Source: Escherichia coli O127:H6 str. E2348/69
GTDB taxonomy: Bacteria > Pseudomonadota > Gammaproteobacteria > Enterobacterales > Enterobacteriaceae
Length of the DNA stretch: 64,000 nt
Reading direction: 5' to 3' (one strand)
NCBI RefSeq assembly: GCF_000026545.1
Contig: NC_011601.1
Below are positions 20,401 to 26,400 of this stretch, piece by piece. Position numbers: made by a program. Within the stretch, counting starts at the first letter, position 1. Each line of letters opens with the position of its first letter.

Positions 20401-23400
20401 GTAAATGCTGAGTAATAAAGTGACGGGTCAGCGAGTGTGCGAGAGGTTTATCCAGCGGTTTGCCGCTCAGTGCCGCGCGCAGCCATAATCCGTCAATTAG
20501 CGCGGCAAGGCCGTAGCCCGCTTCCTGTGCCTGTTGGCGTGGTAACTCGCGGCGAAATTCGCTCACCAGATTCGACAATAAGCGGCGGCTACTGACCTGC
20601 TGCAAGCGATAGAGCATCGGCTGATGCATACTGCTGGCCCAGAAGGCCAGCCAGGCTTTCATCGCCGCACTGCTCACCTGGGTTTCATCGAAGTTTCCGC
20701 CAACAATCGCCTGTAATCGCCGCTCTGCACTGCCCTGCGGAAGTGCATGTAATCGATTCAAAACCGCGTCACGCAGCTGACTGGTGATATCGCGCATGGT
20801 TGCTTCCAGCAGACCATTTTTGTCCCTGAAATAGTGGCTGATGATCCCCGTAGAAACGCCTGCACGGCGGGCGATCTGCGCGATCGTTGCATCGTGCATG
20901 CCCACTTCATTTATTGCTTCCAGCGTGGCGTCGATCAGTTGTCTGCGCCGGATCGACTGCATTCCCAATTTGGGCATTTTCGCCACTCCATTCATCAGCG
21001 TTGTTTATCTATTAAAGCGGTTATTGATTGGACGTTCAATATAAAATGTGTCTTAATTGTTACTAATTTGATTTTAAATGGTAACAATAACAGTGGGGAT
21101 ACTGGATGACAGACCTTTCACACAGCAGGGAAAAGGACAAAATCAATCCGGTGGTGTTTTATACTTCCGCCGGACTGATTTTGTTGTTTTCCCTGACAAC
21201 GATCCTGTTTCGCGACTTCTCGGCCCTGTGGATTGGCCGCACGCTGGACTGGGTCTCTAAAACCTTCGGTTGGTACTATCTGCTGGCGGCAACGCTCTAT
21301 ATTGTCTTTGTAGTCTGTATCGCTTGTTCGCGTTTTGGTTCGGTGAAGCTCGGGCCTGAACAATCAAAACCGGAATTCAGTCTGCTGAGTTGGGCGGCGA
21401 TGCTGTTTGCTGCCGGGATCGGTATCGACCTGATGTTCTTCTCCGTAGCCGAACCGGTAACGCAGTATATGCAGCCGCCGGAAGGCGCGGGACAGACGAT
21501 TGAGGCCGCGCGTCAGGCGATGGTCTGGACGCTGTTTCACTACGGCTTAACCGGCTGGTCGATGTATGCGCTGATGGGCATGGCGCTCGGATACTTTAGC
21601 TATCGTTATAATTTGCCGCTCACTATCCGCTCGGCGCTGTACCCGATCTTCGGTAAACGGATTAACGGGCCGATAGGTCACTCAGTGGATATTGCTGCGG
21701 TGATCGGCACCATCTTCGGTATTGCCACTACGCTCGGTATCGGTGTGGTGCAGCTTAACTATGGCTTGAGCGTACTGTTTGATATTCCCGATTCGATGGC
21801 GGCGAAAGCGGCACTGATCGCCTTGTCGGTGATCATCGCCACTATCTCGGTGACATCCGGTGTTGATAAGGGCATTCGCGTGTTATCGGAACTCAACGTT
21901 GCGCTGGCGCTGGGATTGATTCTGTTCGTGTTGTTTATGGGCGACACCTCGTTCCTGCTTAATGCACTGGTGCTGAATGTTGGCGACTATGTGAATCGCT
22001 TTATGGGCATGACGCTCAACAGTTTTGCCTTCGACCGTCCGGTTGAGTGGATGAATAACTGGACGCTCTTCTTCTGGGCATGGTGGGTGGCATGGTCGCC
22101 GTTTGTCGGCTTGTTCCTGGCGCGTATCTCGCGTGGGCGTACCATTCGCCAGTTCGTGCTGGGCACGTTGATTATTCCGTTTACCTTCACGCTGTTATGG
22201 CTCTCGGTATTCGGCAATAGCGCGCTGTATGAAATCATCCACGGCGGCGCTGCATTTGCCGAGGAAGCGATGGTCCATCCGGAGCGCGGCTTCTACAGCC
22301 TGCTGGCGCAGTATCCGGCGTTTACCTTTAGCGCCTCCGTCGCCACCATTACTGGCCTGCTGTTTTATGTGACCTCGGCGGACTCCGGTGCGTTGGTGCT
22401 GGGGAATTTCACCTCGCAGCTTAAAGATATCAACAGCGACGCACCCGGCTGGCTGCGCGTCTTCTGGTCGGTGGCGATTGGCCTGCTGACGCTAGGCATG
22501 CTGATGACCAACGGGATATCTGCGCTGCAAAACACCACGGTGATTATGGGCCTGCCGTTCAGCTTTGTGATCTTCTTCGTGATGGCGGGGTTGTATAAAT
22601 CTCTGAAGGTAGAAGATTACCGCCGTGAAAGTGCCAACCGCGATACCGCGCCGCGACCGCTGGGGCTTCAGGATCGCCTGAGCTGGAAAAAACGTCTCTC
22701 GCGCCTGATGAATTATCCGGGCACGCGTTACACTAAACAGATGATGGAGACGGTCTGTTATCCGGCAATGGAAGAAGTGGCGCAGGAACTGCGGTTGCGC
22801 GGCGCGTACGTGGAGCTAAAAAACCTGCCGCCGGAAGAGGGACAACAGTTGGGGCATCTGGATTTGTTGGTGCATATGGGCGAAGAGCAGAACTTTGTCT
22901 ATCAGATTTGGCCGCAGCAATATTCAGTGCCGGGCTTTACCTACCGCGCACGTAGCGGGAAATCGACCTACTACCGGCTGGAAACCTTCCTGTTAGAAGG
23001 CAGCCAGGGCAACGACCTGATGGACTACAGCAAAGAGCAGGTGATCACCGATATTCTCGACCAGTACGAGCGGCACCTTAACTTTATCCATCTCCATCGT
23101 GAAGCGCCGGGCCATAGCGTGATGTTCCCGGACTCGTGATTGTTATTGCATAAAACCGCGCCATGTCTGCATATGGCGCGGTTTCTCTTACCTCTTGATA
23201 CGTTATATCTGTGTACAGTTAAGCCCTTAGTATCGATTGATGATTGCCAGGCAACAGATAATAAAAAAGAAAAGAACTATTGAAGCCCAAAACCTACGTT
23301 TGGACTGTTGTGAATGTTCAATAAGCTTAGTCTTATTTAATGTAAATATTGGTGCTAATTTGAAATGACGCTTTATTCATGGGGAACGCGTAGAGCAAAT

Positions 23401-26400
23401 CAACTAAAATCAATGTAACCGTTTGTTGTTTAAGGTTTAATTGTCTGTGTCTGATATTTTATTGATTGTTTTAAATATTGTTTTTATTGTCATTGTTATA
23501 ATGTTGGCTATCTATTGCTGAATGGATTCAGTCTTAAGAGGCAGGTTGTTAAGGGATAGGCATAGAGTAATGACGTGTATGCATAACCAACATCTTTACT
23601 CATTATGTCATTGAATGTTGACGCTATGTGTTTATGAGGTTGAGGTATTTTCAGTTGATCTGGATTGTTAAATTCATATAATGCGCCTTTACTCATGAAT
23701 GGGCGTCAATACGTAGTGGGAAATTATAAATATCGAAATAGTCCAACTACTTCTTTATTACCAAAAATGAGTATCTGAATTTTAATATTGCATTCTTGCG
23801 TGATTATCTCCTGAGTTTGACTTGTGATTACCTTTTTAAGGTATTTAGCGTAACTGTTTTTGAGCGAGCATCAGAGGTAAAGATAATCTTCTTGATAGTG
23901 ATGTGGGATGTTATACGTATGGCATCGCTAATGTTTATGGTTACCCCTTATGTGTGCTCAGGAATCCACAGGTAATCACTCATACTGAACAGCGATAAAA
24001 GATAAAAGGTGTGTTCATGAATTCATGTGATTTTCGTGTTTTTCTGCAAGAGTTCGGTACAACGGTTCATTTGTCATTGCCTGGTAGCGTATCCGAGAAA
24101 GAACGACTGCTACTCAAGCTGCTGATGCAGGGAATGTCTGTAACAGAAATATCACAGTACAGAAATCGCAGTGCAAAGACCATTTCACATCAAAAGAAAC
24201 AGCTCTTTGAGAAACTGGGGATTCAGAGCGATATTACTTTCTGGCGGGATATTTTCTTTCAGTACAATCCGGAGATCATATCCGCCACGGGTAATAATAG
24301 TCACAAATATATTAATGATAATCACTATCACCATATCGTCACGCCTGAAGCCATCAGTCTGGCGTTGGAAAACCACGAGTTTAAACCGTGGATCCAACCG
24401 GTTTTCTGCGCGCAGACTGGGGTACTGACGGGCTGTGAAGTGCTTGTCCGCTGGGAACATCCACAAACGGGAATGATCCCACCGGATCAGTTTATTCCTC
24501 TGGCGGAGTCATCCGGTCTTATTGTCATAATGACTCGCCAGCTGATGAAACAGACTGCGGATATTCTGATGCCGGTAAAACATTTGCTGCCGGACAATTT
24601 CCATATTGGTATCAACGTCTCGGCGGGCTGTTTTTTGGCTGCGGGATTTGAAAAAGAGTGTCTGAACCTGGTTAAGAAATTAGGTAACGATAAAATCAAG
24701 CTGGTTCTTGAGCTGACGGAACGTAATCCTATTCCGGTAACGCCAGAAGCCAGAGCGATATTTGACAGCCTTCATCAGCACAATATTACTTTTGCGCTGG
24801 ATGACTTTGGTACGGGTTATGCAACCTATCGTTACTTGCAGGCGTTCCCGGTCGATTTTATTAAAATTGACAAGTCGTTTGTGCAAATGGCGAGTGTCGA
24901 TGAAATCTCCGGTCATATTGTGGACAATATTGTCGAACTGGCGCGTAAGCCTGGTCTGAGTATCGTGGCGGAAGGGGTAGAAACCCAGGAGCAGGCGGAT
25001 TTAATGATCGGTAAAGGCGTTCACTTTTTACAGGGCTATTTGTACTCTCCGCCAGTACCGGGTAATAAATTTATCTCTGAATGGGTAATGAAAGCAGGTG
25101 GTTGATGTAAACCGCTATTCACAGCGCATCGGGAGGTTGGCAGCGATTAATTCTCCCGATGCAGTAAATCCTGATAGATCCCCGTTAATATGCCATTTGG
25201 CGCAAATTGTTTTTTAATCCACTGCGTCACCTGACCGGTGGCAGAGTGCTGGGTTGCGAGTAACATGCGTGAATCCTGGCGCGGGTTATGGATTTGTCGG
25301 GTAACCAGCAAGGATTGCGCCATCGCCTCACGGACCATGTAATCCGGCAAAAAACCAATTCCTTCACCTAAAATCTGGCACTGACATTTGGTGTTGAAAT
25401 CGGGCACCAGAATCGATTCCTGCCCATGCAGCAACCAGCCTACTTTTTTATTAATCGTATGCGCGGTGTCCTCCACCATGATATTAGGGTAGAGACGCAG
25501 CTGGCTTTCGGCGATCGGCTCCGGCACAAAGGCTAATGGGTGATCCGGGGCGATGGCAAAAGCCCAGCGAATCGCGCCAATCTCCGTGTAATCAATGCCG
25601 CCACCGTCCAGCAGCGTGTCGGGTGCGCCGATAGCGATATTTGCCTGATTATTAATAATCGCATCCCAGACGCCGTTATACACTTCGGTGGTGACGGTAA
25701 TCTGGCAGGTAGGAAACTGCTTTTTCAGCACCTGTAATAAGCGTGCGGTGTGTTTGGGCGTATAAAGCAGCTGATTAATACAAATTCGCACACGCGCTTC
25801 TATGCCCTGCGAAATAGTATCGATACTGCGTTTAATGGCATGAAAATCATTCAGCAGGTCGGTAGCTTTGCGGAAAAAATAACGCCCGGACTCCGTTAAC
25901 TCAATGCTGCGGGTACTGCGAGTGAACAGCACCACATCCAGCCCCGTCTCCATACGTTTAATGGTGTAGCTAATGGCGGAAGTGGTTAAACCCAACTCTT
26001 CTGCGGCTTTACTGAAGCTGCCAAAACGCGCAGCGGTAGTAAATGCCAACAGATTCTCTTCGGTAAAAATTGAGTTCATTAAACCATTCCCGCCATTATC
26101 TAATATGAATTTCTCCAGGCATAACTGTAGAGGTATCAATTAAAGATGGGTAATCATTTTTGAATAACTTTTAATACCCGTCGCGTTTAGTCGTCGCTTC
26201 GCTTAATTTTTGTCCGCCATATTCTGAAATTATCCCCACGCAGTTACCCGCCAGAAAACCCAGTAATGTCACCGTCCAGTTCATCCCGCTGGCAAAAAAT
26301 AGCGTCATGCCGAGAAAGCCCCCGGGAATAAAAGACAGTAACCAGAAACGCCCTTGCCAGACCACCACCGCCGAGAAGGGTACAGTCGTAATTACGCTCG

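What the first reader, a model, noticed from the sequence alone, without database searches (positions are those of the whole stretch)
23140..24016. Unusually long (~870 bp) AT-rich non-coding region upstream of pdeL
There is no credible ORF between the betT terminator and pdeL; the only track ORF (23508..23696, minus) has no supporting features. The region is strongly AT-rich with many A/T tracts, typical of H-NS-bound, heavily regulated promoter regions, and could host a small RNA or multiple regulator sites controlling the c-di-GMP phosphodiesterase PdeL.
Basis: partly seen in the sequence, partly recalled or inferred. Interest (0 to 1): 0.25.

Follow-up and report, generated by a model that had tools for sequence, protein, structure and literature searches.

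The report
Known pdeL control region with yahV
This long AT-rich gap is the already characterised control region of the E. coli c-di-GMP phosphodiesterase gene pdeL, and it is not ORF-free because it contains an intact, unannotated copy of the 24-codon small-protein gene yahV.

Summary
The window is E. coli E2348/69 (100% match). The betT–pdeL gap (23140–24016) is 877 bp.

Every published K-12 pdeL control element maps here:
- PdeL palindrome "CIB" at 23320–23337
- Cra box at 23517–23532
- adjacent PdeL half-site "CDB" at 23533–23545, 5 of 13 bases different from K-12
- −35/−10 at 23655–23682, giving a ~328-nt leader

Published work shows H-NS silencing and Cra/PdeL co-activation.

"No credible ORF" is wrong. 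K-12's yahV (b4730, detected by epitope tag) has an intact ortholog at 23447–23521, with its stop codon inside the Cra box. However, yahV changes look neutral (about 1 synonymous in 12) and the ORF is broken in two sister Escherichia species.

There is no Rfam hit and no sRNA evidence. The 62-aa minus-strand ORF is unsupported.

Side finding: about 26% of E. coli genomes carry the adhesin gene ehaA between betT and pdeL. Upstream of ehaA sits a homologous Cra-box/PdeL-box/promoter module with the same spacing.

Verdict: already known; low interest.

The parts
23153..23189 (+). betT intrinsic terminator: 14-bp hairpin at 23153-23184 (GC core 23156-23181, loop CUGC) followed by UUUCUCUU
   Evidence: strand folding gives dG -22.7 kcal/mol, z -4.76, 0 of 200 shuffles as stable. 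It is conserved in K-12 and in O157 up to position 23181. The consensus terminator scan missed it.
23317..23340 (.). CIB, the Cra-independent PdeL box: perfect palindrome AATAAG-N6-CTTATT at 23320-23337, centred about -360 from the inferred transcription start. One published H-NS site overlaps its left half.
   Evidence: It lies inside the published CIB EMSA fragment (primers 4991/4997; 'CIB plus 10 bp up and 33 bp down'). It is the only exact match in the 64-kb window. It stands out as a conserved island in Escherichia sp. E1V33 (L006) and strain SCPM-O-B-8794 (L007), where the flanks are 30-34% diverged.
23432..23435 (+). Putative Shine-Dalgarno AAGG for yahV, 11 nt upstream of the GTG start
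   Evidence: Read from the sequence. Identical in all E. coli alleles sampled. Function is inferred.
23447..23521 (+). yahV ortholog: 24-codon ORF (GTG start) encoding VSDILLIVLNIVFIVIVIMLAIYC, a hydrophobic single-helix peptide. Its stop codon TGA (23519-23521) lies inside the Cra box.
   Evidence: Syntenic with K-12 yahV b4730 at 331802-331876; 17 of 24 residues are identical. YahV was detected by SPA tag in K-12 (PMC6001520 Table 1). The ORF is intact in 8 of 8 E. coli alleles, giving 5 protein variants, but broken in L006 and L007. Substitutions fit neutrality. It is not annotated in E2348/69 RefSeq.
23517..23532 (.). Cra (FruR) box GCTGAATGGATTCAGT, with palindrome CTGAAT-GG-ATTCAG at 23518-23531. 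Its centre lies about 165 bp upstream of the inferred transcription start.
   Evidence: It matches the published CB/CDB oligo 4695. It is the only exact match in the window. It is identical in K-12; in L006 and L007 the 14-nt palindrome (23518-23531) is exact and only the last box position (23532) differs. It is also exact in the ehaA-type alleles of O157 (L004 6209-6225) and E. whittamii L009.
23533..23545 (.). CDB, the Cra-dependent PdeL half-site: CTTAAGAGGCAGG here, against CTTAATGAGTGGG in K-12
   Evidence: Defined by the bases scrambled in primer 5028. It differs from K-12 at 5 of 13 positions and varies among E. coli alleles and sister species. Segment 23534-23589 is 82% identical to K-12, the most diverged part of the gap.
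23590..23630 (.). 41-bp block invariant between K-12 and E2348 (about -99 to -59) that no published regulator has been assigned to
   Evidence: 0 of 41 differences against K-12, where neutral divergence is about 9%. Identity is 85% with L006 and 78% with L007. Its function is unknown.
23655..23682 (+). pdeL core promoter: -35 TTGATC (23655-23660), 16-bp spacer, -10 TATAAT (23677-23682). The inferred transcription start is about 23689-23691.
   Evidence: It is the best sigma-70 match in the region, 10 of 12. The published promoter-flank mutant primer 5032 leaves exactly these hexamers intact, and the RNAP-binding fragment 4695-4283 ends just past the -10. It is conserved in L006 and L007 and upstream of ehaA in O157, E. 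whittamii and E. albertii. I did not see transcription-start data directly.
23690..24016 (+). Inferred pdeL 5' leader of about 328 nt. It includes a predicted long hairpin at 23856-23965 and the pdeL Shine-Dalgarno AAAGG at 24005-24009.
   Evidence: Leader length follows from the promoter assignment. Only 2 of 215 positions differ from K-12 in 23801-24016, against 9.1% at 4-fold sites. The leader is at least 95% identical in about 3,770 genomes. The hairpin has dG -35.9 kcal/mol and z -2.5; the whole leader has z -1.3. The covariation term is +1.2, which gives no support. There is no homology to ehaA-type loci.
24017..25105 (+). pdeL coding sequence (362 aa), the gene this region controls
   Evidence: RefSeq annotation of E2348/69 and the ORF list (which extends it to an upstream GTG at 24011).

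Best explanation
The gap is the regulatory region and long leader of pdeL, as characterised in E. coli K-12, plus the small ORF yahV.

How it most likely works, taken from K-12 experiments and inferred for this strain:
1. H-NS coats the AT-rich DNA and keeps the sigma-70 promoter (23655-23682) silent.
2. Cra binds its box at 23517-23532 and recruits PdeL to the adjacent half-site (CDB).
3. At low c-di-GMP, PdeL forms tetramers that also engage the upstream palindrome (CIB, 23320-23337), 196 bp away.
4. This probably loops the intervening DNA, displaces H-NS and recruits RNA polymerase.
5. The result is switch-like, bistable pdeL expression from a transcript with a leader of about 328 nt.

The DNA between CIB and the Cra box acts mainly as a spacer of fixed length. 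Within E. coli that T-rich spacer happens to carry the translated 24-codon ORF yahV, whose stop codon is part of the Cra box.

Shown here: the positions, conservation and spacing of the sites.
Inferred, not shown here: protein binding, silencing, looping and the transcription start. These come from published K-12 work.
For: - Identity of the locus: 100% match to E2348/69, with betT and pdeL flanking.
- Published oligos for CIB, Cra box plus CDB, and the promoter map collinearly onto the window.
- The CIB and Cra palindromes are the only exact matches in 64 kb.
- Published functional evidence covers EMSA for Cra and PdeL, H-NS/PdeL competition at CIB, derepression in an hns mutant, RNAP recruitment, and bistability dependent on CIB (10.1101/2021.10.01.462762; PMC5052742). 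H-NS repression of pdeL is also reported in 10.1101/2022.01.19.477023.
- pdeL is higher at 37 C than at 23 C in the B2 strain CFT073, which is typical of H-NS targets (PMC12890032).
- Footprinting against neutral rates: 4-fold sites differ by 9.1% (K-12) and 17-19% (L006, L007). The Cra box, CIB, promoter hexamers and the last ~116 nt of the leader are conserved above that. The rest of the upstream half diverges by 11-18% within E. coli and 30-50% between species.
- Spacing: CIB centre to Cra centre is 196, 196, 195 and 194 bp in E2348, K-12, L006 and L007, despite indels and 36-42% divergence of the DNA between them. Cra centre to -10 is 149-152 bp in all alleles.
- yahV: synteny, an intact ORF, and tagged-protein detection in K-12.
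Against: - No experiment exists for E2348/69 itself.
- The CDB half-site differs from K-12 at 5 of 13 positions and is poorly conserved elsewhere, so the Cra-dependent PdeL step may differ quantitatively.
- I could not read the papers that map the transcription start. The start and the 328-nt leader rest on primer design and the consensus match.
- A Cra site about 165 bp upstream of the start is unusually distal for an activator.
- The low K-12/E2348 divergence of the leader extends into the first 164 nt of pdeL (0 differences). It may therefore reflect recent recombination rather than constraint.
- yahV shows no sign of purifying selection.
Confidence: 0.85

Rival explanations
1. The gap is what remains after loss of the autotransporter gene ehaA. 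Ancestrally the Cra/PdeL-controlled promoter drove ehaA, with pdeL downstream. Deletion or replacement of ehaA then joined the promoter to pdeL and left a long leader. This concerns origin and is compatible with the main explanation of present function.
For: - About 1,400 of 5,426 E. coli genomes carry ehaA (3,984 bp) between betT and pdeL. E. whittamii does too.
- Upstream of ehaA lie an identical Cra box, a PdeL-box-like palindrome (chance expectation 0.03) and a homologous promoter with the same Cra-to-(-10) spacing (nhmmer E 7e-8 to 4e-5).
- E. albertii has an ehaA eroded by internal deletions between this promoter and pdeL, which looks like an intermediate stage.
Against: - The leader (23710-24000) and the upstream part (23200-23510) have no detectable similarity to ehaA or its flanks by blastn, tblastx or nhmmer.
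- Two sister Escherichia species also have the ehaA-less form, and pdeL alleles cluster by form rather than by species. The direction of change is therefore unresolved; insertion of ehaA is equally possible.
Confidence: 0.3
2. yahV is a selected, functional membrane small protein, for example acting in osmotic stress or motility as proposed from its neighbours. It would then be the main biological content of the upstream half of the gap.
For: - SPA-tagged YahV was detected in K-12 (PMC6001520).
- The ORF, with the same start and stop, is intact in 8 of 8 E. coli alleles that differ by up to 11% in nucleotides.
- It is hydrophobic throughout.
- PMC9976479 proposes an osmotic or motility role from co-localisation.
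Against: - All 8 K-12/E2348 differences are nonsynonymous, and about 1 of 12 changes across alleles is synonymous. The neutral expectation is 21.6% synonymous, giving P = 0.14 and 0.23.
- Its divergence (10.7%) is at or above the 4-fold-site rate of 9.1%.
- An ORF like this stays open by chance in 40-54% of simulations.
- The ORF is broken by stop codons in L006 and L007 and absent from ehaA-type alleles.
- Hydrophobicity follows from T-rich codons.
- There are no family matches.
Confidence: 0.2
3. The gap encodes an independent small RNA, on either strand.
For: The gap is long and has conserved blocks, including a predicted stable hairpin at 23856-23965 (z -2.5).
Against: - There is no Rfam match better than E = 1.6, far below gathering scores.
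- No terminator-like site was found by the scan; the only terminator identified is betT's, found by folding.
- The conserved blocks coincide with published protein-binding sites, the promoter and the pdeL leader.
- The consensus fold has no covariation support.
Confidence: 0.05
4. The 62-aa minus-strand ORF (23508-23696) is a real gene.
For: It is open in all E. coli alleles sampled.
Against: - It overlaps the Cra box, the invariant block and the promoter, whose conservation explains why it stays open.
- It has several stop codons and a lost start in L006, and stops in L007.
- It has no NCBIfam hit.
- It is not annotated in any record inspected.
Confidence: 0.02

Closest known systems
E. coli K-12 pdeL (yahA) promoter region: H-NS-silenced, co-activated by Cra and PdeL, responsive to c-di-GMP (Reinders et al. 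2016; bioRxiv 10.1101/2021.10.01.462762)
   Same: - Same locus between betT and pdeL.
- Same Cra box, CIB palindrome and -35/-10 hexamers.
- Same spacing: 196 bp from CIB to Cra and 152 bp from Cra to the -10.
- Promoter and leader are 97-100% identical.
   Different: - The upstream half is 11-18% diverged from K-12.
- CDB differs at 5 of 13 positions.
- One base differs in the N6 spacer of CIB (C here, T in K-12).
- Nothing has been tested in E2348/69.
yahV (b4730), a 24-aa small membrane protein of E. coli K-12 (VanOrsdel et al. 2018, PMC6001520)
   Same: Same position, strand, GTG start, length and stop codon. The same putative ribosome-binding site. Hydrophobic throughout.
   Different: - 7 of 24 residues differ, and every nucleotide change is nonsynonymous.
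- It is not annotated in this strain.
- Expression has not been tested here.
Region upstream of ehaA in E. coli O157:H7, E. whittamii and E. albertii (the alternative form of the betT/ykgG-pdeL junction)
   Same: A homologous module of about 195 bp runs from the Cra box to just past the inferred transcription start. The Cra box is identical, the promoter is TTGAT(C/T)-16-TATAATGCG, and the Cra-to-(-10) distance is 149-152 bp.
   Different: - There the module precedes the 4-kb adhesin gene ehaA.
- The PdeL-type palindrome lies 39 bp downstream of the Cra centre, not 196 bp upstream.
- There is no yahV.
- The leader and upstream DNA are unrelated.
Classical H-NS-silenced loci with anti-silencing activators and extended AT-rich regulatory DNA (bgl, proU). 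From general knowledge, not tested here.
   Same: A long AT-rich region, silencing relieved by a specific DNA-binding activator, and higher expression at 37 C.
   Different: Here the anti-silencer is the product of the regulated gene itself and is controlled by c-di-GMP. A downstream H-NS element in the leader is only conjecture.

Membership tests
pdeL regulatory region (K-12 type) | Lies between the betT terminator and the pdeL start codon | tested here: met
   RefSeq annotation of E2348/69 and alignment to K-12.
pdeL regulatory region (K-12 type) | Cra box as in the published CB oligo | tested here: met
   GCTGAATGGATTCAG at 23517-23531 is identical to K-12 and to oligo 4695. It is the only exact palindrome match in the window.
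pdeL regulatory region (K-12 type) | Upstream PdeL palindrome (CIB), AATAAG-N6-CTTATT | tested here: met
   23320-23337 is a perfect palindrome and the only exact match in the window. It lies inside the published CIB fragment.
pdeL regulatory region (K-12 type) | Cra-dependent PdeL half-site (CDB) next to the Cra box | tested here: inconclusive
   The position is conserved, but the sequence is CTTAAGAGGCAGG against CTTAATGAGTGGG in K-12 (8 of 13 identical). The bases PdeL needs are not known to me.
pdeL regulatory region (K-12 type) | Sigma-70 promoter TTGATC-16-TATAAT | tested here: met
   23655-23682 has both hexamers identical to K-12 and left intact in the published promoter-flank mutant primer 5032.
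pdeL regulatory region (K-12 type) | Binding and silencing by H-NS; activation by Cra and PdeL | not testable with these tools
   Only composition (GC 0.349) and published K-12 experiments bear on this.
yahV (b4730) small-protein gene | Syntenic 24-codon ORF with the same start and stop as K-12 yahV | tested here: met
   23447-23521, GTG to TGA, aligned codon for codon with K-12 331802-331876.
yahV (b4730) small-protein gene | The protein is made | not testable with these tools
   Shown only for K-12 by SPA tag (PMC6001520).
yahV (b4730) small-protein gene | Protein sequence under purifying selection and conserved beyond E. coli (a test of function, not of orthology) | tested here: not met
   0 of 8 and about 1 of 12 changes are synonymous, against 21.6% expected under neutrality. 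The ORF is broken in L006 and L007 and absent from ehaA-type alleles.
Small regulatory RNA gene | Match to a described RNA family, or an own promoter plus terminator with a conserved structure | tested here: not met
   The best Rfam hit is E = 1.6, at 19 bits against a 38.9-bit cutoff. No terminator-like site was found by the scan. There is no covariation.
Rho-independent terminator (betT) | GC-rich hairpin followed by a U-rich tract just after the stop codon | tested here: met
   23153-23184 with dG -22.7 kcal/mol and z -4.76, then UUUCUCUU.

The most novel reading that the evidence does not exclude
The roughly 195-bp Cra-box, PdeL-box and promoter unit may be an old, geometry-constrained control module of the genus Escherichia. 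In about a quarter of E. coli, and in E. whittamii and E. albertii, it sits in front of the adhesin gene ehaA. EhaA would then be under Cra and c-di-GMP/PdeL control, which I found reported in no paper.

On this reading the K-12/E2348 form is a rearranged version. The module is joined directly to pdeL, the PdeL palindrome has moved 196 bp upstream, and the fixed-length T-rich spacer has given rise to an E. coli-only, neutrally evolving but translated proto-gene, yahV.
Probability: 0.4. Interest if true: 0.4.

Novelty: already known. Interest (0 to 1): 0.15.

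Why it matters
For this finding, little changes. The region is the published pdeL control region, and its length and AT-richness are explained by known H-NS silencing and Cra/PdeL anti-silencing.

Three practical points follow:
- yahV is intact but unannotated in E2348/69 and about 2,000 similar genomes. Statements that it is confined to phylogroups A, B1 and C probably reflect annotation rather than biology.
- yahV is a clean example of a translated bacterial ORF with no sign of selection on its protein sequence. This is useful as a caution, or as a proto-gene case.
- The same control module precedes the EhaA adhesin gene in O157:H7-type strains. This gives a directly testable link between carbon flux (Cra), c-di-GMP (PdeL) and an adhesin.

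Tried and rejected
- Rfam scan at permissive E-value: only chance-level hits.
- Consensus promoter/terminator scan: promoter-like sites are no more frequent than in shuffles (4 against 4.3). It missed the real betT terminator.
- Family searches (NCBIfam) for three YahV variants, the 62-aa minus ORF, and the 59-aa and 37-aa plus ORFs: nothing.
- Every ORF of 25 aa or more in the gap was checked across alleles. All are broken in L006, in L007, or in both.
- Search for ehaA remnants in the leader or upstream half (blastn word 7, tblastx, nhmmer profiles): homology is limited to the stretch from the Cra box to about +20.
- Leader RNA structure: the whole-leader z-score is -1.3. One hairpin has z -2.5, but there is essentially no covariation, so no claim is made.
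- H-NS high-affinity motif TCGATAAATT (recalled from memory): no enrichment worth reporting, 2 sites with 2 mismatches.
- A/T-tract excess: none beyond composition.
- Attempts to read the papers that map the pdeL start and H-NS sites failed because they are not held (Reinders 2016, PMC4719445; Yilmaz 2020, PMC8095459). The VanOrsdel supplements are not held either.
- PdeL-based genome scan: full-length orthologs occur only in Escherichia. Hits of 48% identity or less are other EAL-domain proteins and were not used.

Full report
**Identity and observation**

The query stretch is 100% identical to E. coli E2348/69, an EPEC strain. RefSeq places betT up to window 23139 and pdeL from ATG 24017, with nothing annotated between them.

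It is the longest of 38 intergenic gaps in the surrounding 50 kb (median 114 bp, next longest 621 bp). Its GC is 0.349 against 0.51 for the window. Only 0.1% of 877-bp windows are lower, and the minimum falls inside this gap. A/T homopolymer tracts are no more frequent than the composition predicts (15 against 13.7 ± 3.3).

A strong betT terminator hairpin sits at 23153–23184 (dG −22.7 kcal/mol, z −4.8) followed by UUUCUCUU. The consensus scan did not report it.

**A small gene is present**

K-12 MG1655 annotates yahV (b4730) in this gap at 331802–331876, giving a 24-aa product VCDILLNVLNIVFIGIAIILVIIC. VanOrsdel et al. detected it as a chromosomally SPA-tagged protein (PMC6001520, Table 1).

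The alignment puts its ortholog at window 23447–23521. It keeps the same GTG start and the same TGA stop and encodes VSDILLIVLNIVFIVIVIMLAIYC. PGAP annotates it as "YahV" in K-12-like alleles and as "hypothetical protein" in an intermediate allele. It is not annotated in E2348-like alleles. So "no credible ORF" does not hold.

**Known regulatory anatomy mapped onto the window**

Reinders et al. (bioRxiv 10.1101/2021.10.01.462762) describe the following for K-12:
- a distal PdeL site (CIB)
- a proximal PdeL site (CDB) that needs Cra
- an overlapping Cra box
- several H-NS sites, one overlapping CIB
- competition between H-NS and PdeL at CIB
- derepression in an hns mutant
- recruitment of RNA polymerase by Cra plus PdeL
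- bistable expression that depends on CIB

Their supplementary primer table gives the sequences. Mapped through the alignment, the elements are:
- CIB fragment at about 23307–23373, with the perfect palindrome AATAAG-N6-CTTATT at 23320–23337
- Cra box GCTGAATGGATTCAGT at 23517–23532
- CDB at 23533–23545
- promoter −35 TTGATC at 23655–23660 and −10 TATAAT at 23677–23682

The promoter is the best consensus match in the region. It is exactly what primer 5032 leaves unchanged while altering its flanks. Both palindromes are the only exact matches in the 64-kb window. Hengge's review describes the same layout in words (PMC5052742).

The inferred transcription start is about 23689, which gives a leader of about 328 nt. 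I could not open the papers that map the start experimentally, so this step is inferred. The yahV stop codon (23519–23521) lies inside the Cra box.

**Related sequences and footprinting**

A PdeL-based scan of one genome per species found full-length orthologs only in Escherichia. Two loci carry the same type of upstream region with pdeL well conserved (6 and 11 aa differences) but the gap only 76% and 72% identical. They are Escherichia sp. E1V33 (L006) and a divergent "E. coli" SCPM-O-B-8794 (L007).

Neutral yardsticks from 4-fold degenerate sites are 9.1% for E2348 against K-12 (both betT and pdeL) and 17–19% against L006 and L007.

| Segment | Divergence from K-12 | Divergence from L006 / L007 |
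|---|---|---|
| 23200–23446 | 11.4% | 30–34% |
| yahV | 10.7% | 36–42% |
| 23534–23589 (CDB and beyond) | 18% | 44–50% |
| Cra box | 0 of 16 | 1 of 16 |
| Block 23590–23630 | 0 of 41 | 15–22% |
| Leader 23801–24016 | 2 of 215 | not computed as one segment |
| Last ~116 nt of leader | not computed separately | 11–13% |

CIB and the promoter hexamers are also conserved.

Within E. coli the upstream half falls into two deep allele classes. About 1,650 genomes are 88% identical to the window and about 2,000 are at least 98% identical. The leader is at least 95% identical in essentially all ~3,770 carriers.

The low K-12/E2348 divergence runs from 23735 to 24180 and includes 164 nt of coding sequence with no change. 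Recent recombination is therefore an alternative to constraint for the leader.

**Spacing**

The distance from the CIB centre to the Cra centre is 196, 196, 195 and 194 bp in E2348, K-12, L006 and L007. This holds despite indels and heavy divergence of the DNA between them. The distance from the Cra centre to the −10 is 151–152 bp. This fits the published idea that a PdeL tetramer bridges the two sites. It also suggests the intervening DNA, including yahV, is constrained in length rather than in sequence. That last point is my inference.

**Is yahV under selection?**

The ORF is intact in 8 of 8 E. coli alleles sampled, giving 5 protein variants. However:
- All 8 K-12/E2348 nucleotide differences are nonsynonymous. 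Across all alleles about 1 change in 12 is synonymous.
- With 21.6% of non-stop changes expected to be synonymous, these counts fit neutrality (P = 0.14 and 0.23).
- Simulated neutral divergence of this size leaves the ORF open 40–54% of the time.
- In L006 the start is GTA and a stop falls at codon 9. In L007 a stop falls at codon 6.

Hydrophobicity follows from the T-rich codons. No family model matches.

YahV is therefore a real translated product in K-12, but I find no evolutionary evidence that its sequence matters. Its transcription, whether from its own promoter or from read-through past the strong betT terminator, is unknown.

**Other candidates**

The 62-aa minus-strand ORF (23508–23696) overlaps the Cra box, the invariant block and the promoter. 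It is open within E. coli but broken in L006 and L007, and it has no family hit. All other ORFs of 25 aa or more are likewise broken in at least one sister species.

Rfam gives nothing better than E = 1.6.

The leader's consensus fold contains a long hairpin at 23856–23965 (dG −35.9 kcal/mol, z −2.5). The whole leader has z −1.3 and the covariation term is +1.2, so there is no support for a conserved RNA structure.

**Structural polymorphism, outside the finding proper**

In O157:H7, betT is followed by 573 bp, then ehaA (an autotransporter adhesin gene of 3,984 bp), then 141 bp, then pdeL. About 1,400 of 5,426 complete genomes have this form and about 3,650–3,700 have the form seen here.

The two forms share only about 195 bp, from the Cra box to about +20 (nhmmer E 7e-8 to 4e-5). 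The shared features are:
- an identical Cra box (L004 6209–6225)
- a TTGATT-16-TATAATGCG promoter
- a Cra-to-(−10) distance of 149–150 bp

The ehaA form also has a PdeL-type palindrome, AATAAGACGATTCTTATA, 39 bp downstream of the Cra centre. Its chance expectation is 0.03. It is conserved in E. whittamii and is degenerate in E. albertii.

E. albertii carries an ehaA eroded by internal deletions between this promoter and pdeL. pdeL alleles group by form, not by species: 9.1% nucleotide divergence to O157 against 5.6% to L006.

No paper in the searchable library mentions ehaA together with pdeL, yahA or Cra. Whether ehaA was lost or gained cannot be decided from these data.

**Verdict**

Its explanation is already published for K-12 and transfers to this strain by sequence identity of all but one element (CDB).

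The "no ORF" statement was wrong because of yahV. The sRNA suggestion has no support.

Novelty: already known. Interest: low. The ehaA-linked module and the neutral evolution of yahV are modest leads recorded for follow-up.

Noticed in passing
L004 6041-10738 (E. coli O157:H7); replaces the equivalent of window 23182-24005: About 26% of complete E. coli genomes carry the adhesin gene ehaA between betT and pdeL. Upstream of ehaA are an identical Cra box, a PdeL-box-like palindrome (L004 6247-6264) and a promoter homologous to the pdeL promoter, all with the same spacing. This suggests ehaA is under Cra/PdeL control. I found no paper linking ehaA with pdeL or Cra.
   Followed up: partly
L008 1-1185 (E. 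albertii NBRC 107761): Between the conserved promoter (L008 109-136) and pdeL lies an ehaA pseudogene reduced to three fragments by internal deletions. It looks like a possible intermediate between the ehaA form and the short form.
   Followed up: partly
L006 and L007 1-5200; L009 92-1326: Two cryptic-clade Escherichia genomes and E. whittamii lack the bet operon, and ykgEFG abuts the pdeL upstream region. E. whittamii still keeps the last ~26 nt of betT plus its terminator (L009 1260-1326), which implies loss of the bet genes there.
   Followed up: partly
window 23533-23589: The Cra-dependent PdeL half-site and the ~45 bp after it are the most variable part of the gap. They are 82% identical to K-12, with clustered changes at 23538-23548 and 23574-23576, even though this site is reported as essential for c-di-GMP-dependent control in K-12.
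   Followed up: partly
window 23590-23630: A 41-bp block at about -99 to -59 is invariant between K-12 and E2348 and 78-85% conserved in sister species. No regulator is assigned to it in the papers I could read.
   Followed up: no
window 23447-23521 and RefSeq NZ_CP059840.2: yahV is intact but unannotated in E2348/69 and in all E2348-like alleles listed. The published statement that yahV is specific to phylogroups A, B1 and C (PMC9976479) probably reflects annotation or clustering thresholds rather than absence of the ORF.
   Followed up: partly
L005 4517-5214 (E. coli F467): An IS1A element sits directly downstream of yahV. The pdeL promoter, pdeL, yahB, yahC and yahD are missing and the sequence resumes within yahE/fdrA. 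This is a natural pdeL deletion that spares yahV.
   Followed up: no
window 23735-24180: Only 3 differences from K-12 occur in 446 nt spanning the leader and the first 164 nt of pdeL, where neutral sites elsewhere differ by 9%. This could be a recent recombination tract rather than selection on the leader.
   Followed up: partly
window 24011-24019: The mechanical ORF list starts pdeL at GTG 24011 (364 aa). RefSeq and K-12 use ATG 24017 (362 aa), which has AAAGG 7 nt upstream.
   Followed up: no
L010 (Stappia sp. BW2, 385-bp contig): A 385-bp contig at coverage 0.95 in an alphaproteobacterial assembly encodes a PdeL fragment 99% identical to that of E. coli. This is almost certainly contamination.
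   Followed up: no
window 23153-23189: The consensus terminator scan returned no sites, although the betT terminator is a textbook hairpin with a U-tract. Negative results from that scan should not be taken as absence.
   Followed up: yes
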